From the NCBI GenBank assembly GCA_001780035.1, contig MFEY01000007.1:6212-70211 (forward strand): DNA of 64,000 nucleotides, given 5' to 3'. Shown here piece by piece: positions 1,207-59,593 of this stretch (positions within the stretch are counted from its first letter, which is position 1; each line of letters starts with the position of its first letter). The notes beneath the pieces are model-generated. The model was not told the origin of the DNA and ran no database searches. It saw nothing but the letters and a program-made list of their open reading frames with translations. This DNA is from Candidatus Doudnabacteria bacterium RIFCSPHIGHO2_12_FULL_48_16. GTDB lineage: Bacteria; Patescibacteriota; Doudnabacteria; UBA920; O2-02-FULL-48-8. The position numbers and the translations under genes are program-made.

Positions 1207-2265
1207 TTATGGATTGCTGAGTCCTAAATATAGCTCATTACTTGTTTGCGGGTCAATGACGATCCGCTTAACTTCGGCTCGGGTCGGCAGGATTTTGGTT
1301 TCCCAGGTCACGCCGCCGTTGGAACTCTGAAAAATGGTGCTACCTACGGCAACAAACAGGTTGTTGGAATTGTTGGGATTGACCGCGGCGCTGCTGACCC
1401 GCAAGGAGGCGTTCTTAAGCGGCAAAGACAGAAACGACCAAGTCTTGGCGTCGTTAACCGAGCGGAATAGCCCTTGATCGGTCGCCAAATACAAAACCTG
1501 CGGCTGCTTGCGATCCAGAGCCAGGTCATCAAACTGGCTGACCGACGCCTGAACGCTGGTGCTGCTGCTTAAACTTTGGGCGGTCAGTGCCGGCGTGGCC
1601 TGAGTCCAGGCAATGCCGCCGTCCGAACTGACAAACAAACCTTTGTGCAAAGTCAGGGCGTAAACCCGGCTCGACGACCCGAATTCAATTTCCAAAATCC
1701 GGTCCGCTAAATCTTTGGTCGCTTGCCAAGTATGCCCGCCGTCGAGCGAGCGGATAATTTCACCGCTTGATAACCCGGCCAGCACCAGCGAGGAATTGCC
1801 TTTGGAAACATCAATGGCCAGAACCGGGTTGCTTTTGGACGGCTCGGTGTAAATATCCACCCAAGAAGTGCCGCCATCCAGGCTTTTAATGATCTTGCCA
1901 TTGGTGCCGGACAACCCGGAGGCATAGACCACTTGCGGTTGGTAAGCATCCACCACAATCCCGGCCGCGGAAATGCCGGACAAGATATACCGCCACTGTT
2001 TGGCGGCATCGGTTGTTTTGTAAATACCATTGCTGGCGGCCAGATAAATCGTGGCTGAAGTGGAGGAATCAAACGCTATTGCGTTGACGTTGACTCCCGT
2101 AATGTCACCCTTAGGAAGGCTGCTGGCGAGGCGATAGCTCTCCCCCGCGTCTTCGGATTTAAACACTCCGCGAGCGCCGCCGCCGGTGCCCAAAAGCAGA
2201 TCCACGGTATCACAGGATGCCGCCATCAAGCTTAAGCCTAAAATTAAAAAAATAATTTTCCGCAT
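1207..2265 (-). CDS. BNR/Asp-box repeat beta-propeller lipoprotein (Ycf48-like or sialidase-like fold)
   Basis: Signal peptide with a lipobox (LMAASC). Repeated S-x-D-G-G-x-(T/S)-W Asp-box motifs (SLDGGTSW, SLDGGHTW, SSDGGIAW, SSNGGVTW). Confidence 0.55.
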   Translation of the reverse strand: MRKIIFLILGLSLMAASCDTVDLLLGTGGGARGVFKSEDAGESYRLASSLPKGDITGVNVNAIAFDSSTSATIYLAASNGIYKTTDAAKQWRYILSGISAAGIVVDAYQPQVVYASGLSGTNGKIIKSLDGGTSWVDIYTEPSKSNPVLAIDVSKGNSSLVLAGLSSGEIIRSLDGGHTWQATKDLADRILEIEFGSSSRVYALTLHKGLFVSSDGGIAWTQATPALTAQSLSSSTSVQASVSQFDDLALDRKQPQVLYLATDQGLFRSVNDAKTWSFLSLPLKNASLRVSSAAVNPNNSNNLFVAVGSTIFQSSNGGVTWETKILPTRAEVKRIVIDPQTSNELYLGLSNP

Positions 2266-2266
2266 A

Positions 2267-3049
2267 TTAAATTTTGATCATTAAATTGGCGAGCAATAAT
2301 TTACTGTTGACGTTTTGATTAAGGAGGCGCTGCGCCTCGGCCACGGCAGAGATTTTTTTTGTAAGCGCCAACGAAGGCTCGCGCCTGAGCTCGAGTTGAA
2401 GGTCAGCCAACCAACGCTGCAACAAAACCTGCAGATCCGGACTTTCCCAGTCCGCCAAATCTTGGACCAAAATCAGCTTGTCCGCCAGATCCGCGGCTGT
2501 GACTTTTTTGTAATACTCCGTGGCTTCGGCCAGTTTCGCGCAAGCAGCGGGCTCGAGAGCGGGCAGCTGCCGAATTTCTGATTCGTCCAAAGCTCCAAAG
2601 TTAATCTTTTGAACTCGCGAAATAATGGTCTTCGGCAGGCTACTTGAGTTGCTCGTGATCAAAATGATAACCGTCTGGCTCTTGGGTTCTTCTAAGGATT
2701 TCAAAAGTGCGTTGGCCGCTTCGGAATTCATCTCGTGGGCCGAGTCAATCACCGCCACCTTATAAACGCCCGAGTAAGGTTTAAGGGACAGCTTGTAAAC
2801 CAATTCGCGGATCTGAGCGATTTTGATTTCCCCTTCCTGGGCTATTTCAATGTAGTCGGGATGGAAAAAATCATCTCGATGTTCGAGTCCGGGAAGCAGA
2901 GCCTGGGCTAGCCTGCGGGCCACGGCTTTTTTGCCAATGCCGGCCGGGCCGGCAAACAGGTAAGCGTGGGCCAGCTTCGATAGAGCGATGCTTTGGGCCA
3001 GAAATTCCAGTTGTTTTTTGTGTCCTATAATTTGCCAATCCATAAGCAA
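2267..3049 (-). CDS. holB: DNA polymerase III delta-prime subunit
   Basis: AAA+ clamp-loader signature (FAGPAGIGKKAVARRLAQALL, then a sensor region TSNSSSLPKTIISRVQ). The 260-aa length is typical of HolB. Confidence 0.75.
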   Translation of the reverse strand: MLMDWQIIGHKKQLEFLAQSIALSKLAHAYLFAGPAGIGKKAVARRLAQALLPGLEHRDDFFHPDYIEIAQEGEIKIAQIRELVYKLSLKPYSGVYKVAVIDSAHEMNSEAANALLKSLEEPKSQTVIILITSNSSSLPKTIISRVQKINFGALDESEIRQLPALEPAACAKLAEATEYYKKVTAADLADKLILVQDLADWESPDLQVLLQRWLADLQLELRREPSLALTKKISAVAEAQRLLNQNVNSKLLLANLMIKI

Positions 3050-3070
3050 ATTTTACCACGTTTCCAAAGC

Positions 3071-3099
3071 ATTGACAAAACCACGAAAAAACCGTATAA
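3071..3099 (+). promoter_or_regulatory. Consensus sigma70-type promoter (TTGACA-N17-TATAAT), followed by GGAGG and then ATG at 3131
   Basis: I read ttgacaaaaccacgaaaaaaccgtataat, then ...gcggaggaacatac ATG. The -35, spacer, -10 and Shine-Dalgarno are all textbook, which is unusual for this genome. Confidence 0.4.
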
Positions 3100-3130
3100 T
3101 AGTATGTTCAACTCAAGCGGAGGAACATAC

Positions 3131-3411
3131 ATGCGAATCGATCACCGCGACAAGGACGGCGACGGGAAATTCCAGTCAGTTCGTCTGATCGGCTCGGCGA
3201 CGACGGCAAGGTCGTCTTCGGCGTCGGAATCGCCCTGCCCGGTGAATATCCTTTCGGGGTCCACAAGAACCCGGAAACGATCCGGGTTCTCACGGGCGTA
3301 ATGGAGATCAACGGCGCTATCTACCGGCCCGGCAGCAAACCGTTCCGGATCGAAGCCGGAGAAAGCGCCACAATCAAGGTCGAGGTTCCCTCGGCCTACC
3401 TGCGGACCTAA
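3131..3411 (+). pseudogene. ppnP: PpnP/YaiE-family (DUF1255 cupin) pyrimidine/purine nucleoside phosphorylase-like gene, interrupted by a +1/-1 frameshift near 3175-3190
   Basis: The ATG frame gives MRIDHRDKDGDGKFQSV... Another frame, ending at TAA 3409-3411, gives ...SSSDRLGDDGKVVFGVGIALPGEYPFGVHKNPETIRVLTGVMEINGAIYRPGSKPFRIEAGESATIKVEVPSAYLRT. That second stretch is collinear with E. coli PpnP (SVGVMVEGEYTF…VISGAL…YLCRY). The start and stop are in different frames, and the region is about 60% GC. Confidence 0.5.
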
Positions 3412-3544
3412 ATCAAAGGAGGTGACGCATGAAGCGCAAATCTGATTGAGGGTGTAGTTTGGCGAACACCTTCAATGAGTTAACCTAGGATGTCATTCCT
3501 TGAAGGTGCCGGTTCTCCCGACATCCTTCAAGCGAGCTGACATC

Positions 3545-3877
3545 ATGTCCAAGAAGACCATCGCCAGGTTCAGCACGGTCAGGTGGGTGCGGATGCAGGA
3601 CGAACTCGTGGACAGCGACGAGCAGGCCTACGAGATCTACCTCGCCGAGGGCCGGCTGCTGGTATCCACACCCGAAGCGGCGGCCCTCCCCCTGCTCACA
3701 TTCCTCGAGCGCGAGCAGGCCGGCCGGCGCATCCGCTACCTCTACCGCCGGCTCGGCCATAAGCGCCTAACAGCGCTTAACGGGGCTATCCTCGACTTCT
3801 ACCCGAAGGGGTCGGAGCGGGACGGGTTGCCGAGCATCGGCATCGAGGGCGGCGAGCTGAACGGACGGCAATTCTAG
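3545..3877 (+). CDS. Hypothetical protein inside the high-GC island
   Basis: ORF MSKKTIARFSTVRWVRMQDELVDSDEQAYEIYLAEGRLL… at about 65% GC, versus about 48% for the surrounding sequence. I recognise no domain. Confidence 0.3.
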   Translation: MSKKTIARFSTVRWVRMQDELVDSDEQAYEIYLAEGRLLVSTPEAAALPLLTFLEREQAGRRIRYLYRRLGHKRLTALNGAILDFYPKGSERDGLPSIGIEGGELNGRQF

Positions 3878-3883
3878 GGACAA

Positions 3884-3926
3884 CGGGGATCGTGCCTGCA
3901 AGGCGCGACCCCCGTCTTTTTTTGGA
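3884..3926 (+). terminator. Possible rho-independent terminator after the high-GC ORF
   Basis: An imperfect GC-rich stem (gggatcgtgcc…ggcgcgaccc) is followed by cgtcttttttt. Confidence 0.3.
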
Positions 3927-4184
3927 ACAAAAAACAGTAAGTCCTTTTTGACCGCTGCCGACGTATGGGGTGCGACAACAGTTCGGGCTTACTGATTTTT
4001 CTAAACGTTTAGTTAGGCTTAACCTTAATCAGTTTACGGAAGTGAAATTTTCCCGTCAAAACAATTTAAAACCTCTAACTACATTGGGGTTTCCGCCGTT
4101 GCTGTGACAAATTTGTGCGAAACTTGTGGGTAAGGTGTAAATTAAAAACCCATTCCTTTCGAAATGGGCTTTAATTCGATGTCA

Positions 4185-4568
4185 TTAGGACATTGTTGCC
4201 ATTGACCCTTTGTTCATTGAAGCATAGAGTGCCCAAACGCCAACCGCCAAATGCAGGATGGTGTCGGCCGGATTTTCCAGGTTCGCACCCAGGAAACTCT
4301 GATTGAAAATACTGTAAAGACCGACCAAAATGCCGACAACCCCCAAAACCATAACCAGGACTTTTTGGGAAGCCGCCGGGAAGGTGAATGCGGCCAACAG
4401 GCCGACCACGCCAAGAACTAAGTGGGCCCAGTTCTCGCCGTTATCAAACCACCAGTTGGAGCCGAAGATGCTTTTGTCAGCCGTCGGCCCGATTACGCCG
4501 ACAAAGCCCAAAACCCCCAGCAGGACCAAAATAAGGCCGCCAATAACTAAAAATTGCTTTGAATTCAT
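4185..4568 (-). CDS. Small multi-pass membrane protein
   Basis: 127 aa with four hydrophobic helices (LVIGGLILVLLGVLGFVGVIG, HLVLGVVGLLAAF, VLVMVLGVVGILVGL, LHLAVGVWALYA). Confidence 0.5.
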   Translation of the reverse strand: MNSKQFLVIGGLILVLLGVLGFVGVIGPTADKSIFGSNWWFDNGENWAHLVLGVVGLLAAFTFPAASQKVLVMVLGVVGILVGLYSIFNQSFLGANLENPADTILHLAVGVWALYASMNKGSMATMS

Positions 4569-4617
4569 AAACTCACCCCCTCTCTAGCCACATTATAATA
4601 TAAACTTAAGCAAACGG

Positions 4618-5082
4618 CTATTTGGAAGACGGTTTTTCGATTATGACCGTGCCGACCATTTCATCCGCCAAATGATCATGAAAATTATATTGCCCAGGCC
4701 GATTAAGGACGAATTCAAAACTTTCGCCCTGGTGGAGTCCCCGTCCCGCGTCGAAGCCCGGATAAGAACTGTGTGTGGGATGCGGCCCGACAGCCGGCCA
4801 GCGCAAAACAGAATCGTCGTTGCGGAAAACCAAATGATCGCAGACTGCCGCGGCCAGCGATGCGGGATCAAATTTGCCATCGTTCATAACTACGGTCAGG
4901 GTTTGAGAATTTACCACTCCCAAACAATCATAGGCTTTTGCCGGCGGCAACTTGATAATTCCGGCATGCACGAGCGGATAACCGCCGACCATCAGAAACA
5001 TAACCAAAAACAAAACTTTTTTCCAGAATGCAAGCTGCCTGAATTCCTCCACAAATTGTTTGAAGATGTTTAGCATAAGCAA
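4618..5082 (-). CDS. Membrane-anchored cupredoxin-like protein (HPTH…FHDH motif); paralog of 57511-57918
   Basis: N-terminal transmembrane segment. WPAVGPHPTHSSYPGFDAG…ESFEFVLNRPGQYNFHDHL aligns with WPASAPHPTHTDYPEFDS…ETWSFTFGKVGSWKFHDHL in the later ORF. Confidence 0.5.
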   Translation of the reverse strand: MLMLNIFKQFVEEFRQLAFWKKVLFLVMFLMVGGYPLVHAGIIKLPPAKAYDCLGVVNSQTLTVVMNDGKFDPASLAAAVCDHLVFRNDDSVLRWPAVGPHPTHSSYPGFDAGRGLHQGESFEFVLNRPGQYNFHDHLADEMVGTVIIEKPSSK

Positions 5083-5377
5083 ATTATATCATAACTATAA
5101 AAAACCACCTGACGGTGATTTTTTATTAGACCGGTGTGCTGTCAACTCCACTAATCTTGCCCTTACGGACTCCACTAGCCTAGGAACTGGTTCAAGAGGT
5201 TGCCCTTACTTGTTCTAAACCCGGGTTGTTTCTTCCCCGAGCGCACCAATTCGGATTCAACAGTGCCTGATCCCCGAACGACCTTTTTAGAGCCGTCCAT
5301 CTGGCAAAAGTTGCCTCTCACCAGAACGATCGTAGAGACATTATAGAAATCCCCACTCAGCCGGTCAAGAAAAATAA

Positions 5378-5406
5378 AAACCCTGCCAAATGCAGGGATT
5401 TTTATA
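5378..5406 (-). terminator. Rho-independent terminator downstream of mreB
   Basis: On the minus strand: ccctgc-attt-ggcaggg, followed by tttttattttt. Confidence 0.5.
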
Positions 5407-5491
5407 TGAATGTTTATAACCTGTGAGCAACTTTGGGATAAACTGTGCTCAAATTTTATTTCCAGTAGTTTTACGCGCTCTGCGCCGAGCG

Positions 5492-6499
5492 TCACTTACT
5501 GGCAAGAATGCTTTTTTTGTAACTTTCAAGGTTATCGAGAGCCACGCCGGTGCCTTTCACCACACACAGAATCGCGTCTTCGGCCACATAAGCCGGCACT
5601 CCGGTTGATTGGCCAATCAGCTTGTCCAGGTTCTTAAGTAAGGCGGTGCCGCCGGTCATAACCATACCCTTATCAATAATGTCCGCGGCCAATTCGGGGG
5701 GCGTTTCCTGCAAAACTGATCGGATAGCCTTAATAATCTCCCGCAACTCATCTTGAATCGCCTCCACCACTTCATTGGTTGAAATCTGAATCGTTTTCGG
5801 CAGGCCCTGGACCATATCCCGACCGCGGATTTCAATGGTGGTTTGTTTTTCGACCGGCAAAGCGGAACCAATTTTGATCTTGATTTCCTCCGCGGTCCTA
5901 TCGCCCACCGCCAGGCCGTGGCGCTTCTTGATATAAGCCGCAATGGCCGCGTCCAGTTTATTGCCCGCCACCCGAACCGAAGTTTGGGTTACGATTCCGC
6001 CTAAAGATAAAATTGCCACGTCAGTGGTGCCGCCGCCGATATCGATAATCATGTTGCCGGAGGCAGCAGCGATATCAATCCCCGCTCCGATGGCGGCCGC
6101 CACGGTTTCCTTGATGACATAGGCGGCCTTGGCCCCGGCGGCGGTGGCCGCGTCAATCACAGCGCGGCGTTCGGTCGAGGTAATTCCGCCCGGCACGGAA
6201 ATCATAACTTCCGGCCGAAAAAACCGGATGTTGCCCGCGGCCTTGTTTATAAAATAACGAAGCATTGCTTCGGTTACACGGTAATCGGCAATCACGCCAT
6301 CTTTCATCGGCCGATGCGCGACAATCGTATCCGGCGTGCGGCCCAGCATTTCTTTGGCTTCGCCCCCGACAGCCATAATTTTATTATCCACGGTCGAAAT
6401 GGCCACTACCGTGGGTTCGTTGATTATGATGCCTTTTTTCGGGACAAAAACCAGAGTGTTGGCTGTGCCGAGATCAATGCCTATTTTTTGTAAAAACAT
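5492..6499 (-). CDS. mreB: Rod-shape-determining protein MreB
   Basis: MFLQKIGIDLGTANTLVFV… is an actin-fold MreB. The start is trimmed to the internal Met because the upstream ORF extension is low-complexity. Confidence 0.9.
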   Translation of the reverse strand: MFLQKIGIDLGTANTLVFVPKKGIIINEPTVVAISTVDNKIMAVGGEAKEMLGRTPDTIVAHRPMKDGVIADYRVTEAMLRYFINKAAGNIRFFRPEVMISVPGGITSTERRAVIDAATAAGAKAAYVIKETVAAAIGAGIDIAAASGNMIIDIGGGTTDVAILSLGGIVTQTSVRVAGNKLDAAIAAYIKKRHGLAVGDRTAEEIKIKIGSALPVEKQTTIEIRGRDMVQGLPKTIQISTNEVVEAIQDELREIIKAIRSVLQETPPELAADIIDKGMVMTGGTALLKNLDKLIGQSTGVPAYVAEDAILCVVKGTGVALDNLESYKKSILASK

Positions 6500-10685: not shown

Positions 10686-12388
10686 AATTTTTGATTTATA
10701 ATTCGCATGTCGATAATTTTAAATTCCATATCCTTGCGGCCATTCCATTCATTGGCCGTGAGTTCAAACACCGCGTCGAATTTTGTTCCCAAAATCAACT
10801 GGTTCGCCAAGAATCCTTGATTAAATGCAATTGCGCCTAATCGATGGTCGCCGAACTTTGCTTTTAACTTCAAATGCTGATTAGCGTTACCAACTGTGCG
10901 GTATTCTAAAATTTCCAAATCGCGGCCAGAGAGTTTGGGTTTGGGGTTACCCATACCAAAGGGAGCTAGTTTTTCAATCAGTTCTAGAGTTGGCCACGAA
11001 ACATCTGACGGCGAAACTTCCGCATCAATATGCAAAACCGGATCGCTTAAAGTTAGGCTCAAACTTTCCGCATATTCTAAAAGTTTTTGATGTAAATTCT
11101 CCAACCTTTCGTGAGAGGTGCTAAACCCGGCGGCTTGGGTGTGGCCACCGTATTTTTCTAAATGCTCTTGGGAATACCCCAAACCAGCCACAATGTCGAA
11201 TTCTGCAATTGATCGGGCTGAGCCTGTGGCCGCCCCGGCCGCGTCCACGCTGACCACTAGAACGGGTCGGTTGTGCTCTTCCATCAGCTTGCCGGCAACC
11301 AAGCCCACTACGCCCTTCGGCCAATCTGTGCCGGAAACCAATAATACTTTTTTGTCCAAATTCAATTCAGCCTGGGCCCGCGCTTCGCTAAGCACCTGAT
11401 CAGTCAGAATTTGGCGCTGACGATTAAGATCAATCACTTCTTTGGCCAATTGTTCGGCTTCAGCCTTGTCATCTGAAATCAAAAGTTTGAACGCCACGTC
11501 CGCGTGCTTGATACGGCCGGCGGCGTTGATCGGCGGCGCTAAAATAAAACCCAAAGTGAATGTATCGAATTTCTGGCCCTCAATCCCGGCAGTTTTGATT
11601 AGCGCGGCCAGTCCCGGCCAACGGGTTTTGGGCAAAACTTTAAGCCCGAAATTAACCAGGATACGATTTTCGCCGGTCAGACTCTGCAGGTCAGCCACTG
11701 TGCCGATCGCCACTAAATCCAAGAGCCATTTTTCCCACCCATCCGTAATTCGTAATTCGTAATTCGTAATTCGACTAAATAGGCCTTGAACCAGCTTATA
11801 CGCCACCCCAACCCCGGTCAAATACAGAAACGGATAATTATCCGCCGGATTTTTGGGATTGATCACGGCAAACGCTTCCGGCAAATCGCCGATAACTTCG
11901 TGGTGATCGGTAATAATCAAATCGATCCCCAACTCGCGGCAAATTAATGCTTCGGCGCGGGCGTTAATCCCGCAATCAACCGTAATGATAACTTTGGCAT
12001 TCTGAGCGTGTAGTTGCTTAATTCCTTCGGCGCTCATCCCATAACCTTCGCTAAATCGATCCGGGATATAATAAATCACTTGCGCGCCGAGTTTCTTTAA
12101 GGCCAAGTAAGCGACCGCGCAAGCAGTCACCGCATCCGCGTCATAATCCGCGTAAATCGCGATAATCTCTTTTTGTGCAATCGCGCGCTCGATCCGTTCG
12201 ACAGCCTTCTGCATATCCTGAAACAAGAACGGATCATGCAGTTTGGCGTAATCCGGGTCCAAAAAATCGCGGATCGCTTCGGCCTCAGTAATCCCGCGCA
12301 AAGCGAGCAACCGCAAAATGAGCGGCGAGTATTCTGCCAAATCCGGTATTGCGGTTTTCAGTTCTTTGGTTCGCCACTGTTTTTTCAT
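10682..12388 (-). CDS. recJ: Single-stranded-DNA-specific exonuclease RecJ
   Basis: DHH/DHHA1 motifs (…IITVDCGI…, …ITDHHE…). 568 aa. Confidence 0.85.
   Translation of the reverse strand: MKKQWRTKELKTAIPDLAEYSPLILRLLALRGITEAEAIRDFLDPDYAKLHDPFLFQDMQKAVERIERAIAQKEIIAIYADYDADAVTACAVAYLALKKLGAQVIYYIPDRFSEGYGMSAEGIKQLHAQNAKVIITVDCGINARAEALICRELGIDLIITDHHEVIGDLPEAFAVINPKNPADNYPFLYLTGVGVAYKLVQGLFSRITNYELRITDGWEKWLLDLVAIGTVADLQSLTGENRILVNFGLKVLPKTRWPGLAALIKTAGIEGQKFDTFTLGFILAPPINAAGRIKHADVAFKLLISDDKAEAEQLAKEVIDLNRQRQILTDQVLSEARAQAELNLDKKVLLVSGTDWPKGVVGLVAGKLMEEHNRPVLVVSVDAAGAATGSARSIAEFDIVAGLGYSQEHLEKYGGHTQAAGFSTSHERLENLHQKLLEYAESLSLTLSDPVLHIDAEVSPSDVSWPTLELIEKLAPFGMGNPKPKLSGRDLEILEYRTVGNANQHLKLKAKFGDHRLGAIAFNQGFLANQLILGTKFDAVFELTANEWNGRKDMEFKIIDMRIINQKL
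11744..11773. repeat. Tandem heptamer (CGTAATT)x4 inside the recJ coding sequence
   Basis: I read ccgtaattcgtaattcgtaattcgtaattcgac. On the minus strand it encodes …NYELRITDG…. A seven-nucleotide unit means any unit gain or loss shifts the frame. Confidence 0.7.
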
Positions 12389-13116
12389 GCAATTGCATCC
12401 AAAATAATTTGGTTAACTTTTTTAACTTCGTCCAGATTGCGCCGGTAATCATGACCAACGCCACGAACCAGAATAAATTTTTTCGGTTCATTAGCTTCGT
12501 CAAAAATCTTTTGTATGGTTTCTGGTGGACAGATTGTATCTTTTTCTCCGGCTATTAGTAATATAGGAATATGCAATCCCTTTATCTTGTCCAGCGTATC
12601 GTATTTACTTGAATCTTCAAAAAAGGACAGGGGTACTGAATATTGTTTATTTTGAGTAGGGTTACCAGGAATATCTCGATTGTTAACCTCAACTGCTCGG
12701 TTATTACGTAAAGTTTTTTTGTTGCTCGACATAATAGCCAGAACCTTAGAAATATCTGGATCTGATTCGGCATAAAGTAAAGACATCCTTCCTCCCATAC
12801 TATGGCCGCCGGCGAGGAGAAAATTATATGTGCCATTTGCCAACATATAATTTTTTACGCTTCTTATATCATTTAAATACTGAGTGGTTGTGTAGTCTGA
12901 GATTGATCCCTCGCTTTCCCAAGTACCCGTAGGATCAAAACGGACAACAGTATACCCTTTTGCAGCTAAATCGTTAGCCAAATAAAGCAACCCATTATAA
13001 TCTTTCGAATCCAGATAACCTGGACACAAAATCGCCAACTTGTCAGTAACTTGGGTTGACCGGTGAATCGCCGCTGCTAATTTATTTTTTCCAGATGGGA
13101 TTTTAACTAGTTCCAT
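12385..13116 (-). CDS. Alpha/beta-hydrolase family serine hydrolase
   Basis: GxSxG nucleophile elbow (LLAGGHSMGG) and a later GHD triad residue. This gene is about 38% GC. Confidence 0.6.
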   Translation of the reverse strand: MELVKIPSGKNKLAAAIHRSTQVTDKLAILCPGYLDSKDYNGLLYLANDLAAKGYTVVRFDPTGTWESEGSISDYTTTQYLNDIRSVKNYMLANGTYNFLLAGGHSMGGRMSLLYAESDPDISKVLAIMSSNKKTLRNNRAVEVNNRDIPGNPTQNKQYSVPLSFFEDSSKYDTLDKIKGLHIPILLIAGEKDTICPPETIQKIFDEANEPKKFILVRGVGHDYRRNLDEVKKVNQIILDAIA

Positions 13117-13889
13117 AAAATTTTTTTTAAATTACTACCGGTTTTAATTAAAGTGAATAACTCGTCATAAAATTCCGGGTTACCACCCACAAAAACTCTA
13201 TCCGATGGATTAATATTGGTCGCGCCTTCGATATTAGTAAATTTACCGCCGGCTTCTTGAATAATAAACCCTCCAGCAAACTCTGGAAATGCATCTTTAG
13301 TAAAGGTCGCGATACCATCAACACGGCCGCAAGCGACGGCGCAATATTCAACTGCGATCGAATTCCAGTTATTTTCAACCATATAACCACTTAGTAAGTT
13401 TGCTACTTTCTCGATCACTTCCGGTCTTTTCCATGCAATAGATGGTCTTAAGATAACCTTGCTATGTGCTTGGCTAACTTTTATGGGCCGATTATTTAGA
13501 AATGCTCCCTTACCTGCGAAAGCTGTAAATAATTCATCTGCTGTGGGATTATAGACTGCAGCAAAGACCGTCATATGATTAACTAGATGCGAGATTACTA
13601 TTGAGTATGAATTTGGCGCTCCTTTAATAAACCCACTCGTCCCGCTTATCGGATCCACCACCCAAAGATTATCGGAGTTTTGAAATAAGTCATGTTCCTC
13701 TTCGGCGTAAAGTATGTGGTTGGTTCCAAAACTCGCAATAATATTTTGCAAACCTCTTTCAATGGCCAAATCTTCTTCGGTCAAGTGAACTTTTGTGATA
13801 CCAATATCAACAATATTACCGGCTCGGGTAGCTAATCTTTTACCCGACGCCACCATAAAATCAATTATTTTCTGATAATCTATATCCAT
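13107..13889 (-). CDS. Inositol monophosphatase family protein (SuhB/CysQ-like)
   Basis: IMPase motifs WVVDPISGTSGF and …YAEEE…. 260 aa. Confidence 0.7.
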   Translation of the reverse strand: MDIDYQKIIDFMVASGKRLATRAGNIVDIGITKVHLTEEDLAIERGLQNIIASFGTNHILYAEEEHDLFQNSDNLWVVDPISGTSGFIKGAPNSYSIVISHLVNHMTVFAAVYNPTADELFTAFAGKGAFLNNRPIKVSQAHSKVILRPSIAWKRPEVIEKVANLLSGYMVENNWNSIAVEYCAVACGRVDGIATFTKDAFPEFAGGFIIQEAGGKFTNIEGATNINPSDRVFVGGNPEFYDELFTLIKTGSNLKKILWN

Positions 13890-18321: not shown

Positions 18322-18927
18322 TTATTTCGTAAACTTGAAAGTGGACAGGATTTGATCCACCAAAGGAGATACTTTATTAACATAATCATTACTATCGCTT
18401 AAAACATCCGTAAAACTTAGAAAATAAGTTAGAGCAAATGCATTGTTGTTTTTTTCAAAGACAACAATTCTCATGACCCCTAATCCTGTATCGTAGACCA
18501 ATTCGAACGCATCTTCCTGCGCAAATACTATTTTCTGGTTAGATATTAATTTGAACCCTCTAGCCGCGTTGTAAACATTTAACCAATTATTTGCTACTGT
18601 CGATGCCGCTTTATTTTCATATACATACCAGACTGTACCCGAGGGTGCCTGACCTTGAACTTTAGGACCTGTTACCGATACTAAATTCTCATACCACAGC
18701 GAATCGCTCGCGTCGGACTTTGGAAGATGTCTGTCGATTAACTCCCAATTGCTTGGATACTTAAACTCAAACCCGTATTTGGTATTGGTATAAGTTTTCC
18801 AATTCACGGTTTCATTTGTTGTGACTGGAGCCTTAACAATTCTGGGATTCTGCCACAGGTAAATGCCACCGACCACAACGATGGCGGCCGCAGCGAGAAA
18901 TAGATAGCCTAAAATTTTATGCTTCAT
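18322..18927 (-). CDS. Membrane-anchored extracytoplasmic protein, member of the W-TY-N-KYGFEF-YP family, paralog 1
   Basis: N-terminal transmembrane segment, motif [20 protein letters not shown], and a C-terminus …ILSTFKFTK shared with 22033, 23093, 23907 and 45219. Confidence 0.5.
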   Translation of the reverse strand: MKHKILGYLFLAAAAIVVVGGIYLWQNPRIVKAPVTTNETVNWKTYTNTKYGFEFKYPSNWELIDRHLPKSDASDSLWYENLVSVTGPKVQGQAPSGTVWYVYENKAASTVANNWLNVYNAARGFKLISNQKIVFAQEDAFELVYDTGLGVMRIVVFEKNNNAFALTYFLSFTDVLSDSNDYVNKVSPLVDQILSTFKFTK

Positions 18928-19655
18928 TTTAATTCTTTAATTTTCTTAATTAAATTTTCTGGATACCAAACTGGTCCGATTATAACTGGTGCTATTGAAT
19001 TATAATCTGTTGTTCGCAGAACCACATTACCACTTTTGGAATCAGATAATTTAGCCAAAGATCCTAACACAGCGGTCGCTGGTATCGTCCGGCCCCGTGT
19101 TGAAATCATCTGCCAATAAGAAAACTTGGTTGGATAAATTTCAGTAATATTTTTGATATAAATCGTGCGGAGATTATACATTAATGGCAGCAATCCTTTG
19201 ATCTCAACTCTGTCGCTATAAAGGATAAATTTTCTGGAAAATGCGCTAAAACCTAGAAAAATAATAATAATTAATATAACCAATCCGACTATTAATAACC
19301 TTATATCCAGTTGATCAAATGCTTTAAGTGCTCCATACAGAATAAATACACTCATAAAGCCAAAATATCCTAATACCACATAAAATCCGGATCTATCTTG
19401 CTTAATTTCAATCCCGTTCGTAATGAACTCATATTTATCAGCTGTCTTATTTTGTTCTTGAGGTATATTGCCCAGGCCAGAAAAGAAAAGAATCGCGCCC
19501 AACACCATCATAAAAATGCCGACAATTTGCAAATTCTCGTTTGGTTTTAATCCCCAAACCAATACTGCTCCGGCAATGGCGAAAATTAAACCAAATAAAA
19601 TTAACGTTTTAGATGAGATAAATTCTGACTTCTGTTCCATATTACTCTTTCCCAA
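18924..19655 (-). CDS. Polytopic membrane protein with a possible bacterial PH-like (YdbT/DUF304-like) segment
   Basis: 243 aa with several transmembrane helices. Its stop overlaps the start of 18322-18927 by 4 nt. Confidence 0.35.
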   Translation of the reverse strand: MGKSNMEQKSEFISSKTLILFGLIFAIAGAVLVWGLKPNENLQIVGIFMMVLGAILFFSGLGNIPQEQNKTADKYEFITNGIEIKQDRSGFYVVLGYFGFMSVFILYGALKAFDQLDIRLLIVGLVILIIIIFLGFSAFSRKFILYSDRVEIKGLLPLMYNLRTIYIKNITEIYPTKFSYWQMISTRGRTIPATAVLGSLAKLSDSKSGNVVLRTTDYNSIAPVIIGPVWYPENLIKKIKELK

Positions 19656-22032: not shown

Positions 22033-22839
22033 TTATTGTATTTCAAGGGTGGATAATAGCTTTTGAAACTCAAGTTTCTTATGAGCTAAATCTGGATCCT
22101 TATCAGGATTTGGGATATAGAGCTCGAAGGCAATTCCTGAAAAATCCTTCGATGACTTGAGATTAAAAATAGCACCATAACGCCAGGGATAATACCACTC
22201 CATCCCGACGTAAGTTATAGGGTCAATAAAAATACCTGTAGTATTCACACCTGTAACCTCACTAATTAATTTGGAATCAAGCAGATATTTGGTGTTTTGA
22301 ATATATTTGAAGTAATATGCTGTAAGATTTTTAACGTAACCTGTACTATCAAAAAATTGTCCACCTCGATTAGTCTGGAAATCGGAACTAATGCCACCAA
22401 ATAATGCATAACGACTGTTTTGCCCTGGTGGTTTATAATATGCAGCAAATGTTTTCCCTTTGACCTGATCGGGATAAGATGTGTACCCGTAAGTTTCACC
22501 ATTTTTAATTTCGAGGGATATCTCGCCCCAATCGGATGGATATTCAAACTTTACCCCAAGCTCTTTACTTTCAAATGTCTTCCAGTTCAAGGTGTCATTT
22601 GTAGTTTCGGATTTTCTACAATTAGTTCCAGCATCAGGAAAATTGTCTTCCGGGATACAGGTATATCCAGAAGTCGGACAAGGAATGCCGGCAACACTAC
22701 CGCAAAAAATTTCACCTTTGTCTTGGTGGACCACTGGGCCTGGGATCGCCTGGTGCGCCACCTGCCAATAATAAAGCACTGACACGACTGCCGCGCCGAT
22801 CGCCACCAGAAATATGATTCCTAAAACTTTGTATTTCAT
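22033..22839 (-). CDS. Membrane-anchored extracytoplasmic protein, same family, paralog 2
   Basis: LNWKTFESKELGVKFEYPSDW motif with an N-terminal transmembrane segment. Its ATG overlaps the TGA of the upstream AbrB-like gene (ATGA). Confidence 0.5.
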   Translation of the reverse strand: MKYKVLGIIFLVAIGAAVVSVLYYWQVAHQAIPGPVVHQDKGEIFCGSVAGIPCPTSGYTCIPEDNFPDAGTNCRKSETTNDTLNWKTFESKELGVKFEYPSDWGEISLEIKNGETYGYTSYPDQVKGKTFAAYYKPPGQNSRYALFGGISSDFQTNRGGQFFDSTGYVKNLTAYYFKYIQNTKYLLDSKLISEVTGVNTTGIFIDPITYVGMEWYYPWRYGAIFNLKSSKDFSGIAFELYIPNPDKDPDLAHKKLEFQKLLSTLEIQ

Positions 22840-23009
22840 TTGGTTTTCTTATGTTTCGTCATGGCGTCCCGGATCGAAATGCCCCGGGGCATACGCTTCA
22901 CCAAAACCCTTTGTCGCTCGCGCCAGCCCAAGGTTTTCAGTAATTCTTTTGGAATTACAACGGCCAATGATCTTTTGCCAACTCTGGTTACTTTATAAAC
23001 GTTTTTCAT
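22836..23009 (-). CDS. AbrB/MazE/SpoVT-family small protein (57 aa, not in the ORF track)
   Basis: MKNVYKVTRVGKRSLAVVIPKELLKTLGWRERQRVLVKRMPRGISIRDAMTKHKKTK is a paralog of 18100-18279. It is translationally coupled to the downstream family member. Confidence 0.5.
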   Translation of the reverse strand: MKNVYKVTRVGKRSLAVVIPKELLKTLGWRERQRVLVKRMPRGISIRDAMTKHKKTK

Positions 23010-23092
23010 TTGCTTTTGCTACGTAGCATGCTACGTAATTATATTATTTTTTAGGGAGTTTTCTCGAAGCCAATTAGCAAGCTATCTAACAT

Positions 23093-23818
23093 TTATTTAC
23101 TAAATTTAAATGTTGAGAAAATTTGATTAAGCAAATCCATTCGGCCGGAAATATGATATACACGTCCACTTAATTCTGTTAAATAGTCTGAATCACCGAG
23201 TTTCGTCCAAGAAATTCCGTAATAATTTGCAGACGTTTCTGTTTTATTTTTTAAATACTGGTTATCTCTTTTCACTATTGCGAGTTGTGAATTATAAACA
23301 TCAACCCGGGCATTGAAATCTTGTACCGGATACCTCTCAAATATCGCCACAAAAGTTCGAGAATCTGGCATATAGTCAATAGAACTAGCTGGATATTCTT
23401 TTGCTGTCCAGGTTTTTGGATATTGGAACTCAAAACTATATTTTTCGCTGCAGTAAGTCTTAAATTCTCGAGTTTCAACAATACCTGTACAGAAATTGGT
23501 TGTACTTTCATGATGTATAATCTCGGATATAGATTTATCTGGCAAAAATTTTATCAGTAACACTAAACTTACAATACCAAGACCTAATAACGTTACCAAG
23601 ACCGAAGTTAATTTTGATTTCTTCCGCAATTGCCATGCAAATAGCATAAGCAGTATTACAAACATCAACGCTAGTAAATCTAAATTTTCAGTCAACCAAT
23701 TGCCTGAATTATCGCTAAAAGATGTCACTAGAACTAAAAAGAATACGAATCCGCCAAAAATAATCAGTCCAATTACGAACCAAAACCATCCTTCGTTCTT
23801 CTGATCTTGTGGGTTCAT
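23093..23818 (-). CDS. Membrane-anchored extracytoplasmic protein, same family, paralog 3
   Basis: …EFKTYCSEKYSFEFQYPKTW… and a C-terminus …IFSTFKFSK. Confidence 0.5.
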   Translation of the reverse strand: MNPQDQKNEGWFWFVIGLIIFGGFVFFLVLVTSFSDNSGNWLTENLDLLALMFVILLMLFAWQLRKKSKLTSVLVTLLGLGIVSLVLLIKFLPDKSISEIIHHESTTNFCTGIVETREFKTYCSEKYSFEFQYPKTWTAKEYPASSIDYMPDSRTFVAIFERYPVQDFNARVDVYNSQLAIVKRDNQYLKNKTETSANYYGISWTKLGDSDYLTELSGRVYHISGRMDLLNQIFSTFKFSK

Positions 23819-23906
23819 AAGCTATATTTCCCTTGCTCTAAATTTCGGATGCTTTTTCATATAGGCTTCGATTTCCGGAATTTTTATGATAAATGCTTTC
23901 ATAAAA

Positions 23907-24752
23907 TCAATAAAATTTGAAGCTGGAAAGGATTTGATTGATAGTTTCAATGTTATTAACAAATACTTGTCCTGCGGTGAAAACTTGCACTTCAACCACT
24001 TTTTGCTCATGCTCAAAGAAATAAAGATTACCACCACCAAAAACATTAGGTCCAGCTTCCGCCTTATATCCAATATTATCCCCGACTATTATCCTCTCCG
24101 CATTTATGATATAAGGATCTGGTCCTAAAGAATATTTGCTTATAAAATCATTTAAGTCTTTTGTTCCCAATTTTTTCCAGTCAAGTTGTGAAAGTTGAGA
24201 ATATAGAGTGGCTCTAAATAAGTAAGGTAAATCCGTGTCGACATGACTACTGGAAGAAACAGAAGGAGGATCAGCTAACAAGACATCAGCTCCCCTATTC
24301 GACAGGCTAGTTTGAAAATGCCAATCGCCTGGATACTTAAGCTCAAAACCGTATTTCTCATCCCTATATACTTTCCAATTCCCGGTTTCAGCAGCCTCCT
24401 TGGCCTTCCTTTGTTGTATTAGTTGGTCAGCATTATATAAAAAACTGTTTTGTGTACTTATGTTTTGCAAATACGAAATAGCGCCAAGTACTATTCCCAC
24501 AATTAATAATAAAACGGCATATTTAAAAATTTTCTTCCTGATATTTTCTTTCTTTATGGGGAGATCATGTGCTCCAACGAGTAATAATAGTCCTACCAAA
24601 AGCAACATGATAAGTATAAGATAGTTTCCTCCTGAATCGAGTTCTCCTAAAGCAGTCTTGACATAAAACCAAAAAGCAATTGATCCAAGGGCCAAAATAA
24701 CGAATGAAACGCCAATGATATATAATATAGTTTTTATCATTTTTATATTCAT
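23907..24752 (-). CDS. Membrane-anchored extracytoplasmic protein, same family, paralog 4
   Basis: …NWKVYRDEKYGFELKYPGDW… and a C-terminus …ILSSFKFY. Two N-terminal transmembrane helices. Confidence 0.5.
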   Translation of the reverse strand: MNIKMIKTILYIIGVSFVILALGSIAFWFYVKTALGELDSGGNYLILIMLLLVGLLLLVGAHDLPIKKENIRKKIFKYAVLLLIVGIVLGAISYLQNISTQNSFLYNADQLIQQRKAKEAAETGNWKVYRDEKYGFELKYPGDWHFQTSLSNRGADVLLADPPSVSSSSHVDTDLPYLFRATLYSQLSQLDWKKLGTKDLNDFISKYSLGPDPYIINAERIIVGDNIGYKAEAGPNVFGGGNLYFFEHEQKVVEVQVFTAGQVFVNNIETINQILSSFKFY

Positions 24753-59385: not shown

Positions 59386-59593
59386 TAAGCAGAAAGAGTC
59401 TTTCGCCTTCTTTCATCCAGACTATACTGTCGCCTCCGGAATCAAACCGGATCGTGCTCTTTCAAGCTCGCGGGGTATACCGCCGGTGGGGAATTCTCTG
59501 CCCGCCGAAGCCTCGGCGAAGGAGGGTCACCCCGCCCTGAAGGTTAATTGCTTTGATTATAGCTTATACAAAATTGGTAGGCAAACTATTCGC

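What the first reader, a model, noticed from the sequence alone, without database searches (positions are those of the whole stretch)
3060..3930. High-GC island carrying a textbook E. coli-like promoter and RBS, plus a frameshifted ppnP-like gene
The interval 3060-3930 is about 60-65% GC against about 48% in the flanks. It begins with TTGACA-N17-TATAAT and a GGAGG spaced 7 nt from ATG 3131. That is a perfect consensus expression signal of the kind found in engineered constructs or in high-expression proteobacterial genes, and it is atypical here. The gene is a PpnP/YaiE-family nucleoside phosphorylase homolog broken by a single-base frameshift near 3175-3190. A second high-GC ORF of unknown function follows at 3545-3877, and downstream there is a possible terminator at 3884-3926. 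An inverted repeat caccttcaa…ttgaaggtg at 3464-3507 contains the GTTAAC and CCTAGG palindromes. The options are recent horizontal acquisition, contaminating or chimeric assembly, or a sequencing-error frameshift.
Basis: seen in the sequence. Interest (0 to 1): 0.6.

Follow-up and report, generated by a model that had tools for sequence, protein, structure and literature searches.

The report
Conserved GC-rich small-protein operon, Doudnabacteria
The GC-rich "island" is not contamination or a fresh foreign insert: it is a native operon of Doudnabacteria (tiny uncultured bacteria) with a strong promoter, a dead nucleoside-phosphorylase-like gene, a 6-codon leader with a structured RNA lock, and a small unknown protein that stays oddly GC-rich in every relative.

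Summary
The interpretation mostly fails.

**Source and assembly.** The window is a Candidatus Doudnabacteria genome from the candidate phyla radiation (CPR). Four other assemblies match 2001-5200 at 100%, frameshift included, so chimera and sequencing error are unlikely.

**The second ORF (3545-3877).**
- It is not an orphan. Seven homologues exist (39-59% identity), all in Doudnabacteria-like contigs.
- At least four sit at the same place, divergent from holB.
- All have a TTGACA promoter where the upstream DNA is held. All have a 5-9 codon mini-ORF with a strong Shine-Dalgarno and a leader that hides the start site.
- ORF2 has diverged about as much as holB. Yet its third-codon-position GC (GC3) is 0.76-0.90 everywhere, against 0.37-0.63 for neighbouring genes. 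High GC is a heritable family trait, not a transfer scar, and it is unexplained.

**The PpnP-like cupin (3131-3411).**
- It is a real pseudogene with a 1-nt deletion at about 3185-3200.
- It occupies a variable cargo slot between the promoter and the leader. Other lineages carry different genes there, or none.

**Function.** ORF2 has no Pfam, PDB or fold match. My best mechanism is that ORF2 translation is gated by the leader mini-ORF (inferred, about 40%).

**Verdict.** New variant of a known kind; moderate interest.

The parts
3072..3100 (+). Sigma-70-type promoter, TTGACA-17-TATAAT, divergent from holB (holB ATG at 3043 on the minus strand)
   Evidence: It matches 12 of 12. It is unique in the window, where 0.05 are expected. 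The -35 TTGACA is invariant and the -10 is near-consensus at the homologous place in L011, L012, L013, L014, L015 and L016.
3119..3123 (+). Shine-Dalgarno GGAGG, 7 nt before ATG 3131
   Evidence: Read directly from the sequence.
3131..3301 (+). 5' part of the PpnP-like cupin pseudogene in frame 0 (56-aa product, stop 3299-3301). Only about 3131-3196 still encodes cupin-like sequence.
   Evidence: ORF list. GKFQSVRL aligns with GKVKSIGF of PpnP structures. The same 56-aa product is called in the other assemblies.
3185..3200 (+). Zone of the 1-nt deletion (frame 0 to frame -1). No slippery heptamer and no homopolymer.
   Evidence: Three-frame translation. The Pfam and PDB alignments cross the junction.
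3199..3411 (+). 3' part of the cupin pseudogene in the -1 frame (stop 3409-3411)
   Evidence: Pfam Ppnp at 23.6 bits alone and 27.5 bits when joined to the 5' part. GC at codon positions 1/2/3 of 0.64/0.45/0.78 (measured on 3190-3411) fits coding in this frame.
3415..3449 (+). Strong Shine-Dalgarno AAAGGAGGTGA (3415-3425) plus the 6-codon mini-ORF MKRKSD (ATG 3429, TGA 3447-3449)
   Evidence: Read from the sequence. A Shine-Dalgarno plus a 5-9 codon mini-ORF lies at the equivalent place in L011, L012, L013, L014, L015 and L016.
3446..3475 (+). Helix 0:1, TTGAGGGTGT (containing the mini-ORF stop codon) pairing with ACACCTTCAA
   Evidence: Present in the minimum-free-energy fold. The equivalent helix folds in L012 and L015. 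Pair counts (73% of cells paired).
3467..3508 (+). Alternative helix 1:2, CACCTTCAA / TTGAAGGTG. It competes with helices 0:1 and 2:3.
   Evidence: 100% of cells are paired in the three type I leaders. A central segment complementary to both sides is beyond chance (0/100 shuffles in W).
3488..3544 (+). Long ground-state hairpin. GGATGTC(A) pairs with (T)GACATC at 3538-3544, abutting the start codon. CTTGAAGG (3499-3506) pairs with CCTTCAAG (3525-3532). It buries the ORF2 ribosome-binding region.
   Evidence: Minimum-free-energy fold. Opening the RBS costs 18 kcal/mol in W. The core is invariant in W, L012 and L015.
3545..3877 (+). ORF2, 110 aa, a member of a new small-protein family restricted to Doudnabacteria-like genomes
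   Evidence: Homologues found. 25 invariant columns. GC at codon positions 1/2/3 is 0.65/0.43/0.89. dN/dS is about 0.4-0.6. AlphaFold2 with 7 sequences gives pLDDT 73 and pTM 0.65.
3883..3923 (+). Intrinsic terminator: stem ACGGGGATCGTGCC / GGCGCGACCCCCGT followed by a run of seven T
   Evidence: L016 has a terminator of similar sequence, and L012 and L015 have a hairpin plus T-run after ORF2.

Best explanation
The island is a native, lineage-conserved transcription unit of Candidatus Doudnabacteria.

Layout:
- A near-consensus promoter divergent from holB drives the whole unit.
- A variable cargo slot follows. In this genome it holds a PpnP-like cupin gene (nucleoside salvage) that a 1-nt deletion has killed.
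- A strongly ribosome-loaded 6-codon mini-ORF follows.
- Next comes a leader RNA whose ground state buries the ORF2 ribosome-binding site in a long hairpin.
- ORF2 follows: a 110-aa cytoplasmic protein of a new family.
- An intrinsic terminator closes the unit.

Shown:
- The unit is real.
- It is old and syntenic.
- ORF2 is a protein under purifying selection.
- Its high GC3 is kept in all lineages.
- The leader has a central segment that can pair either upstream or downstream.

Inferred (about 40%): ORF2 translation is gated kinetically by ribosomes on the mini-ORF.
- Ribosome present: a ribosome reaching the stop codon, which lies inside helix 0:1, keeps segment 1 free to capture segment 2 as it is transcribed. 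Segment 3, the Shine-Dalgarno and the AUG then emerge unpaired and ORF2 is translated.
- Ribosome absent: helix 0:1 forms first, segment 2 pairs with segment 3, and the message is locked.
- Consequence: ORF2 would be a translation-status-responsive protein made from an abundant, stable, mostly locked mRNA.

Its biochemical activity is unknown.
For: Real, not an artefact: four other assemblies are 100% identical over 2001-5200. ORF2 is in four NCBI genome bins of Doudnabacteria.

Conserved family: a full HMMER scan and a profile search give seven homologues of 105-130 aa.

Synteny: L011, L013, L014 and L016 have ORF2 divergent from holB. L011, L013 and L014 also show mreB on the far side. L017 shares the downstream non-coding block.

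Age: ORF2 amino-acid identity is 0.45-0.59, against 0.49-0.60 for holB between the same genomes. dS is 0.7-1.4.

Coding: GC at codon positions 1/2/3 is 0.65/0.43/0.89. There are 25 invariant columns. pLDDT is 73 with only 7 sequences.

GC as a family trait: in each of the six loci tested, ORF2 GC3 (0.79-0.90) exceeds the maximum of the neighbouring genes, with z from 3.4 to 20.

Promoter conserved.

Leader:
- The mini-ORF plus Shine-Dalgarno is present in all 7 loci where that region is held.
- The RBS is sequestered in every minimum-free-energy fold. Opening it costs 9-20 kcal/mol.
- Double complementarity of the central segment exceeds shuffles in all 8 leaders (0-3 of 100).
- Two leader types carry unrelated segment sequences, CACCTTCAA/TTGAAGGTG/CCTTCAAG versus GCAGAGG/CCTCTGC/GCAGAGG. 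Both keep the same architecture.
- The type I core is far better conserved than ORF2's synonymous sites.

Cargo slot: W has the cupin, L013 has 96-aa and 257-aa genes, L016 has a 131-aa gene, and L011 and L014 have none. The L016 cargo and the L013 257-aa gene are homologous.

Cupin identity.
Against: Leader mechanism:
- At equilibrium, blocking the mini-ORF and the 9-15 nt after its stop codon does not open the RBS. P(unpaired) stays at 0.25 in W. The gate must therefore be kinetic, which I could not test.
- Covariation inside each leader type is weak. Most pairs never vary, with 3 and 5 sequences.
- In type II leaders no clear helix 0:1 includes the stop codon.
- W's own Shine-Dalgarno before ORF2 is poor (GCGAGC, against TAGGAG in L012 and L015).

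ORF2 function: no Pfam, NCBIfam, PHROG or PADLOC hit and no fold match.

Vertical inheritance:
- Codon usage looks foreign. The host uses Leu TTG and Glu GAA; ORF2 uses CTC/CTG and GAG.
- The module occurs in two genomic contexts: next to holB, and between a DEAD-box helicase gene and a PMT_2 glycosyltransferase gene.
- W's leader type matches the other context, and W groups with that context in the ORF2 tree, weakly (48% bootstrap). Some mobility on evolutionary time is therefore likely.
- Only 8 family members are known, and the taxonomy of most contigs is inferred from synteny.
Confidence: 0.65

Rival explanations
1. Recent horizontal acquisition of the whole 0.8-kb island from a high-GC donor. 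The foreign composition has simply not yet been ameliorated.
For: GC and GC3 are far above the host's. Codon choice is unlike host EF-Tu and core genes and looks like that of a 60-65% GC genome. Horizontal transfer is frequent in Patescibacteria, reaching up to 13% of genome length (PMC12455944). The cupin has no relative in the other loci.
Against: ORF2, its promoter and its leader are present at the same holB-adjacent site in at least four other lineages. Their divergence equals that of holB. No homologue exists in any high-GC organism among 1.8 billion representative proteins. There are no mobility genes, no tRNA and no flanking repeats. The GC-rich state persists although synonymous sites are near saturation.
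Confidence: 0.1
2. The promoter-leader-ORF2 module, with its cargo, is a small mobile or exchangeable cassette. It circulates within a GC-richer Doudnabacteria gene pool and is repeatedly re-imported by homologous recombination through the conserved flanks. In that case the GC-richness reflects the pool and not the resident genome.
For: - There are two genomic contexts: next to holB, and between a DEAD-box helicase gene and a PMT_2 gene.
- W sits at holB but has the leader type of the other context, and it groups with that context in the ORF2 tree at 48% bootstrap.
- The cargo is variable.
- In L013 the same ~85-nt repeat follows each cargo gene.
- All genes of the unit are GC-raised whatever their identity.
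- The flanks are very conserved: mreB at 91% amino-acid identity, plus a structured RNA.
Against: There is no integrase or transposase, no terminal repeats and no target duplication. There are no viral or plasmid relatives. The copies are 45-68% identical, so any exchange is ancient. The other genes of the same inter-flank region in W (DUF4383 and cupredoxin, 4185-5082) are not GC-rich.
Confidence: 0.15
3. The frameshift is an assembly or sequencing error, or a programmed -1 ribosomal frameshift, and the cell makes an intact PpnP-like enzyme.
For: There is a single shift only. The -1 frame is open for 102 codons (3103-3408) and still shows coding periodicity. The joined protein passes the Pfam cut-off.
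Against: The sequence is identical in contigs from at least 4 samples in the Logan, ENA and JGI collections. The context CGTCTGATCGGCTCGGCGACG has no homopolymer and no X XXY YYZ heptamer. The only strong hairpin (3266-3290) lies about 70 nt downstream of the shift zone, too far to stimulate slippage.
Confidence: 0.05
4. The leader is not a ribosome-sensing attenuator. It is a riboswitch or a protein-binding operator, for example autoregulation by ORF2, and the mini-ORF is incidental or serves only to protect the mRNA.
For: - The type I core GGATGTCATTCCTGGAGGTGCCGG is invariant, including its unpaired bases, in lineages whose ORF2 proteins are 54-68% identical.
- A pseudoknot (1:2 plus GGATGTC:GACATCC) is possible, with 100% of cells paired.
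- The type II inner hairpin has a conserved ACUAAC loop and two compensatory pairs.
- The equilibrium ribosome model fails.
Against: The mini-ORF with a very strong Shine-Dalgarno is kept in all seven loci although its peptide sequence is not. In all three type I leaders its stop codon lies inside helix 0:1. There is no Rfam match.
Confidence: 0.25

Closest known systems
PpnP / YaiE pyrimidine-purine nucleoside phosphorylase (Pfam PF06865, formerly DUF1255/UPF0345; PDB 2OYZ, 7EYJ-7EYM)
   Same: A single ~92-aa cupin domain. The match covers the full profile length (positions 8-89 of 92). The GEY-x-F and SAYL motifs align.
   Different: It is very distant: 27.5 bits against a cut-off of 25, and 17.7 bits against the NCBIfam equivalog cut-off of 143. 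It is interrupted by a 1-nt deletion. It lies in a CPR genome, inside a leader region. Activity is untested.
Leader-peptide translational attenuators of inducible resistance genes (ermC, cat-86, cmlA) - from established knowledge
   Same: A short upstream ORF with its own strong Shine-Dalgarno. Mutually exclusive helices. The RBS of the downstream gene is sequestered in the ground state. The mini-ORF peptides are rich in Lys, Arg and His.
   Different: The leader ORF is only 5-9 codons. Its stop codon, not an internal stall site, sits in the first helix. No inducer is known. The downstream gene is not a known resistance gene. The equilibrium model does not open the RBS.
Locked, stable toxin mRNAs of type I toxin-antitoxin systems (hok/mok/sok; symE/symR) - from established knowledge
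   Same: A strong promoter. A heavily folded message with a buried RBS. A small leader ORF, like mok. The downstream protein is of SymE-like size (about 110 aa).
   Different: No antisense RNA promoter lies within or opposite the unit. The neighbouring minus-strand RNA candidate shows no specific pairing with the leader. ORF2 is not hydrophobic and has no SymE or AbrB Pfam match.
Compositionally deviant genomic islands from horizontal transfer
   Same: GC, GC3 and codon usage differ sharply from the host's.
   Different: The deviation is inherited along with a syntenic, equally diverged gene in several lineages. There is no mobility machinery.

Membership tests
PpnP (PF06865) nucleoside phosphorylase | Sequence matches the family profile above the curated cut-off over its full length | tested here: met
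   The joined frames score 27.5 bits against a cut-off of 25, over profile positions 8-89 of 92. The -1 frame alone scores 23.6, below the cut-off. The top 4 PDB hits are PpnP structures.
PpnP (PF06865) nucleoside phosphorylase | Equivalog-level similarity to characterised PpnP (NCBIfam NF007875) | tested here: not met
   17.7 bits against a cut-off of 143. It is a distant cupin of this family, not an orthologue.
PpnP (PF06865) nucleoside phosphorylase | Intact reading frame encoding the whole cupin | tested here: not met
   Frame 0 stops at 3299-3301. The rest is in the -1 frame. The same holds in the other assemblies.
PpnP (PF06865) nucleoside phosphorylase | Phosphorolysis of purine and pyrimidine nucleosides | not testable with these tools
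   Needs an enzyme assay of the repaired gene.
Recently acquired genomic island | Composition and codon usage deviate from the host | tested here: met
   GC is 0.59-0.66 against 0.47. GC3 is 0.78-0.89 against a host mean of 0.53 and maximum of 0.67. Codon choice differs.
Recently acquired genomic island | Absent from the same site in related genomes | tested here: not met
   The promoter, leader and ORF2 are present next to holB in L011, L013, L014 and L016. Only the cupin is absent there.
Recently acquired genomic island | Mobility signatures (integrase or transposase, tRNA target, flanking direct or inverted repeats) | tested here: not met
   No such ORFs, no tRNA, and only chance-level repeats of 10-11 nt.
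Recently acquired genomic island | Close homologue in a plausible donor | tested here: not met
   For ORF2 there is none outside Doudnabacteria-like contigs.
Engineered construct or vector contamination | DNA similarity to plasmids or vectors, or junctions not reproducible | tested here: not met
   No plasmid or phage match in blastn distant mode. The junctions are identical in four other assemblies.
Leader-peptide translational attenuator (erm/cat class) | Short upstream ORF with its own Shine-Dalgarno | tested here: met
   AAAGGAGGTGA-N3-ATG, 6 codons, 3415-3449. Equivalents in all seven loci where the region is held.
Leader-peptide translational attenuator (erm/cat class) | Mutually exclusive helices, one of which hides the RBS of the downstream gene | tested here: met
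   Segments 0:1, 1:2 and 2:3. The RBS is paired in all minimum-free-energy folds. The statistic exceeds shuffles, 0-3 of 100.
Leader-peptide translational attenuator (erm/cat class) | A ribosome held on the leader ORF shifts the fold to the open-RBS form | tested here: inconclusive
   The equilibrium fold with the leader blocked keeps the RBS paired (P unpaired 0.25). A co-transcriptional, kinetic effect cannot be computed here.
Leader-peptide translational attenuator (erm/cat class) | Defined stalling peptide and inducer | not testable with these tools
   The peptides MKRKSD, MKHQTC, MTKHK, MNHRA, MRPRR, MSARRS and MGRQPLIRL share only basic residues. Three of the seven contain a basic-any-basic triplet, which is not significant for peptides this short.
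Programmed -1 ribosomal frameshift site | Slippery heptamer X XXY YYZ in frame, with a stimulatory structure 5-9 nt downstream | tested here: not met
   No such heptamer in 3160-3210. The nearest strong hairpin is at 3266-3290.
Known RNA family (Rfam 15) | Covariance-model match at or near the gathering score | tested here: not met
   Nothing in 2800-4400 at E up to 1 except an 18.5-bit chance hit outside the unit. Nothing in the related loci.

The most novel reading that the evidence does not exclude
An entire small transcription unit (ORF2 plus whatever cargo sits in it) is held at GC3 of about 0.7-0.9 in genomes whose other genes have GC3 of 0.37-0.63. This has lasted over a divergence at which the synonymous sites of neighbouring genes are saturated.

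That would require one of two things. One is selection on synonymous sites of a protein-coding message, for example an RNase-resistant, translationally locked 'stored' mRNA opened by ribosomes on a 6-codon leader. The other is a locus-specific GC-biased repair or conversion process. Neither has been described in CPR bacteria.

ORF2 and its two leader types would then be a new regulatory module specific to Doudnabacteria.
Probability: 0.25. Interest if true: 0.7.

Novelty: new variant of a known kind. Interest (0 to 1): 0.5.

Why it matters
1. It shows that a sharp compositional anomaly, together with 'textbook' expression signals, can be an inherited property of a native gene. It need not be a mark of transfer or contamination. 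This is a caution for island-calling and for decontaminating CPR genome bins.
2. It defines a small protein family with no Pfam, NCBIfam, PHROG or PADLOC match, and two Rfam-unmatched variants of a leader RNA with a mini-ORF. CPR bacteria cannot yet be manipulated genetically, so such cis-regulatory logic can be tested in surrogate hosts.
3. The long-term maintenance of GC-rich synonymous sites in a low-GC genome is a clean natural test case. It can separate selection on synonymous sites from biased gene conversion.
4. The dead PpnP-like gene is a minor point. It records a lost nucleoside-salvage function in an organism that depends on salvage.

Tried and rejected
**Database searches with no useful result**
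- Rfam on the island, the whole window and the related loci: no family found.
- Plasmid and phage blastn: nothing.
- Viral contigs searched with the ORF2 profile and two leader patterns: nothing, apart from two chance matches that I read and dismissed.
- HolB-based scans of genome and metagenome contigs: only 31-37% relatives, so no empty-site comparison came that way.
- Word-based protein search with ORF2 and with the rebuilt cupin: self hits only. The exhaustive HMMER scan was what found the family.
- PHROGs, NCBIfam and PADLOC for ORF2 and the cupin, PADLOC and Pfam for the cargo genes: nothing.

**Structure**
- Single-sequence AlphaFold was useless (pLDDT 41).
- The model built with 7 sequences (pLDDT 73) has no Foldseek match in PDB or BFVD (best E 0.47 and 0.23).
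- A profile search against PDB sequences gave only a non-significant hit to 2JVW (E 0.29).

**Explanations of the high GC3 that were tested and rejected**
- Overlapping or antisense ORFs: open frames are no longer than codon-shuffled controls.
- Extra mRNA structure in the coding sequence: z is only -0.9 to -2.9.
- Translational selection towards host-preferred codons: the codon choice is the opposite.

**Other ideas rejected**
- Pairing between the neighbouring minus-strand RNA candidate and the leader is no better than with shuffled sequence.
- Transposon-like ends were looked for: none.
- Programmed frameshift: no slippery site.
- A thermodynamic version of the attenuator does not open the RBS.
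- Relics of the cupin or of the cargo genes were sought in the other loci: none.
- The gene-free stretches next to mreB in L011, L013 and L014 are not alignable to each other.
Full report
**1. What is there**

- The interval 3060-3930 is 58.8% GC and 3131-3877 is 60.8%. The window mean is 47.4%. This is the most GC-rich stretch of the 64 kb.
- The GC is confined to two coding segments: 3131-3411 at 60% and 3545-3877 at 66%. The promoter/5' UTR is AT-rich and the 3413-3544 spacer is 49% GC.
- TTGACA-17-TATAAT at 3072-3100 matches 12 of 12. It is unique in the window, where 0.05 such sites are expected. Four 11/12 sites also occur, against 1.4 sites of 11/12 or better expected.
- GGAGG at 3119-3123 precedes ATG 3131 by 7 nt.
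- The terminator is a ~14-bp stem at 3883-3915 followed by a run of seven T.

**2. The source, and why it is not an artefact**

ORF2 is identical to hypothetical proteins of four Candidatus Doudnabacteria genome bins: OGE87721.1, OGE89353.1, OGE89956.1 and OGE97499.1. This places the window in the candidate phyla radiation (CPR).

Contigs from two Logan runs and two ENA assemblies are 100% identical to 2001-5200. They carry the same 56-aa and 36-aa gene calls. JGI contigs carry the same truncated product. There is no DNA match to plasmids or phages. Chimera, vector contamination and a sequencing-error frameshift are therefore unlikely, although I could not inspect reads.

**3. The first gene**

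- Frame 0 from ATG 3131 stops at 3299-3301. The -1 frame is open from 3103 to the stop at 3409-3411.
- Joined, the 92 residues match Pfam Ppnp (PF06865) at 27.5 bits (cut-off 25) over profile positions 8-89 of 92.
- The four best PDB sequence hits are PpnP/UPF0345 cupins; the 7eym and 7eyl alignments shown run across the junction.
- The NCBIfam equivalog score is far below its cut-off, 17.7 against 143. It is a distant family member, not an orthologue.
- By homology the shift lies at about 3185-3200. That stretch has no homopolymer and no slippery heptamer.
- The -1 frame still shows coding periodicity (GC3 0.78) and has no second lesion.

I conclude that it is a recently inactivated pseudogene with a 1-nt deletion.

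**4. The second gene is the conserved core**

A word-based search found only self hits. An exhaustive HMMER scan, followed by a profile search, found seven homologues of 105-130 aa at 39-59% identity. One is annotated as Candidatus Doudnabacteria.

Their contexts fall into two groups.
- In L011, L013, L014 and L016 the gene is divergent from holB, as in the window. L011, L013 and L014 also show mreB on the far side. L017 shares the downstream non-coding block.
- In L012 and L015 it lies between a DEAD-box helicase gene and a PMT_2 glycosyltransferase gene.

ORF2 is a real protein-coding gene.
- GC at codon positions 1/2/3 is 0.65/0.43/0.89.
- There are 25 invariant columns.
- dN/dS is about 0.4-0.6.
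- AlphaFold2 with only seven sequences gives pLDDT 73 and pTM 0.65.

Its divergence (amino-acid identity 0.45-0.59) equals that of the adjacent holB (0.49-0.60). Synonymous sites are near saturation. The gene is therefore old at this locus.

**5. The GC anomaly is inherited**

- In each of the six loci tested, ORF2 GC3 (0.79-0.90) exceeds the maximum GC3 of the neighbouring genes, whose means are 0.37-0.63. The z-scores run from 3.4 to 20.
- Cargo genes in the same unit are also raised, at 0.67-0.78.
- Codon choice is not that of the host's EF-Tu, SecY or MreB. The host prefers Leu TTG, Glu GAA and Phe TTT. The ORF2 family uses CTC/CTG, GAG and only TTC.
- No homologue exists in any high-GC organism.
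- I tested and rejected overlapping ORFs and extra mRNA structure in the coding sequence.

The cause remains unexplained. The possibilities left are selection on synonymous sites, locus-specific biased conversion, and exchange within an unsampled GC-rich gene pool.

**6. Promoter and leader**

The -35 TTGACA is invariant, and the -10 is near-consensus, in all seven loci where the upstream DNA is held. The 'textbook' promoter is native to this unit.

Between the promoter and ORF2, every locus where the region is held has a very strong Shine-Dalgarno and a mini-ORF of 5-9 codons. The peptides are MKRKSD at 3429-3449 in the window, and MKHQTC, MTKHK, MNHRA, MRPRR, MSARRS and MGRQPLIRL elsewhere.

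Downstream of the mini-ORF, a central segment can pair either with an upstream segment or with a downstream one next to the ORF2 start.

The window's segments are:

| Segment | Sequence | Coordinates | Note |
|---|---|---|---|
| 0 | TTGAGGGTGT | 3446-3455 | contains the mini-ORF stop codon |
| 1 | ACACCTTCAA | 3466-3475 | |
| 2 | TTGAAGGTG | 3500-3508 | central segment |
| 3 | CCTTCAAG | 3525-3532 | |
| A | GGATGTC | 3488-3494 | pairs with GACATC at 3539-3544, abutting ATG 3545 |

- In all eight leaders the minimum-free-energy fold buries the ribosome-binding region. Opening it costs 9-20 kcal/mol.
- The double complementarity of the central segment exceeds dinucleotide shuffles (0-3 of 100).
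- Two leader types exist. Type I is found in W, L012 and L015. Type II is found in L011, L013, L014, L016 and L017. Their segment sequences are unrelated (type II uses GCAGAGG/CCTCTGC/GCAGAGG) but the architecture is the same.
- Within a type most pairs never vary, so covariation statistics are weak.
The GTTAAC and CCTAGG palindromes are not conserved.

**7. The cargo slot**

In L011 and L014 the promoter is followed directly by the mini-ORF. In the window, the cupin pseudogene sits between them. L016 has a 131-aa gene there. L013 has a 96-aa and a 257-aa gene, followed by a second promoter. The L016 gene and the N-terminal half of the L013 257-aa gene are homologous (30% identity, E 5e-7). 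The cupin has no relic in the other loci. The cupin is therefore lineage-specific cargo in a recurrent insertion slot. Its origin is unknown.

**8. Mechanism**

Shown: a native, old operon with promoter, cargo pseudogene, mini-ORF, a leader that hides the RBS, ORF2 and a terminator.

Inferred, at about 40%: a kinetic translational gate.
- A ribosome finishing the mini-ORF keeps helix 0:1 open.
- Segment 1 then captures segment 2 as it is transcribed.
- The Shine-Dalgarno and AUG of ORF2 emerge unpaired.
- Without a ribosome, helices 0:1 and 2:3 form and the message is locked.

A purely thermodynamic version fails. With the leader blocked, the RBS stays paired. The rival readings are a riboswitch or protein operator, and an exchangeable cassette.

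ORF2's activity is unknown. There is no Pfam, NCBIfam, PHROG or PADLOC hit and no PDB or BFVD fold match.

**9. Comparison with known systems**

- The cupin is a distant and disrupted PpnP-family member.
- The leader works like erm/cat-type leader-peptide attenuators and resembles locked type I toxin mRNAs. It lacks their defining inducer or antisense RNA.
- The island looks like a horizontally transferred island by composition. It fails the tests of absence in relatives, mobility signatures and an identifiable donor.
- Horizontal transfer is common in Patescibacteria (PMC12455944), so the prior was reasonable. Here the evidence goes the other way.

**10. Verdict**

- Novelty: a new variant of a known kind. 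It is a leader-controlled small-protein operon with an uncharacterised protein family and two Rfam-unmatched leader variants.
- The oddity is a GC-rich coding state maintained over long evolutionary time.
- Interest: 0.5.

Noticed in passing
window 5085-5340, minus strand (promoter 5368 to 5340): A structured RNA candidate of about 235 nt. It has a TTGACC-17-TATAAT promoter and an intrinsic terminator, and it is conserved in L011, L013 and L014. The consensus fold has 69 pairs, 19 of them with compensatory changes in only 4 sequences. It matches no Rfam family. Gene callers place a 106-aa ORF (5175-5495) over it.
   Followed up: partly
window 3927-4140: A conserved non-coding block downstream of the ORF2 terminator. 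It contains a long hairpin, CAGTAAGTCC...GGGCTTACTG (3931-3998), flanked by an A-run and a T-run. The outer stem covaries in L013, L014 and L017. It is followed by TAGGCTTAACC (4014-4024) and a minus-strand promoter-like site, TTGACG-17-TAAACT (4059 to 4031). It may be a bidirectional terminator plus a small minus-strand RNA. It shows no specific pairing with the ORF2 leader.
   Followed up: partly
L013 3367-3759: The ORF2 homologue of another Doudnabacteria genome bin (MBX4191528.1) carries its own 1-nt frameshift after residue ~62. The C-terminal half continues in another frame. So one of the eight known family members is also disrupted.
   Followed up: partly
L013 2165-2250 and 3083-3170; L016 294-686: In L013, each of the two cargo genes upstream of ORF2 is followed by the same ~85-nt repeat (gatcggcagtaaccgatcac...acgacgac...gtcgtcgt...), which resembles cassette boundaries. 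The L016 131-aa cargo is homologous to the N-terminal half of the L013 257-aa cargo (30% identity, E 5e-7). Neither has a Pfam match.
   Followed up: partly
L011 7010-7600; L014 3250-3800; L013 4425-4790: Gene-free stretches of 350-590 nt next to mreB, with minus-strand promoter-like sites. They match no Rfam family, tRNA or tmRNA, and they do not align with each other. The window has DUF4383 and cupredoxin genes (4185-5082) at this position instead.
   Followed up: partly
window 12385-13889, 18322-19655, 22033-24752, 60986-63975: Blocks of genes with unusually low GC3 (0.29-0.45, against about 0.6 for core genes). Several have no Pfam family. The genome is compositionally mosaic in both directions.
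   Followed up: no
window 59401-59548, minus strand: An FMN riboswitch (RF00050, 87.7 bits). It is the only Rfam family in the window at gathering score. No tRNA genes occur in the 64 kb.
   Followed up: no
window 57520-57753, minus strand: A paralogue (41% identity over 78 aa) of the cupredoxin-like gene at 4618-5082.
   Followed up: no
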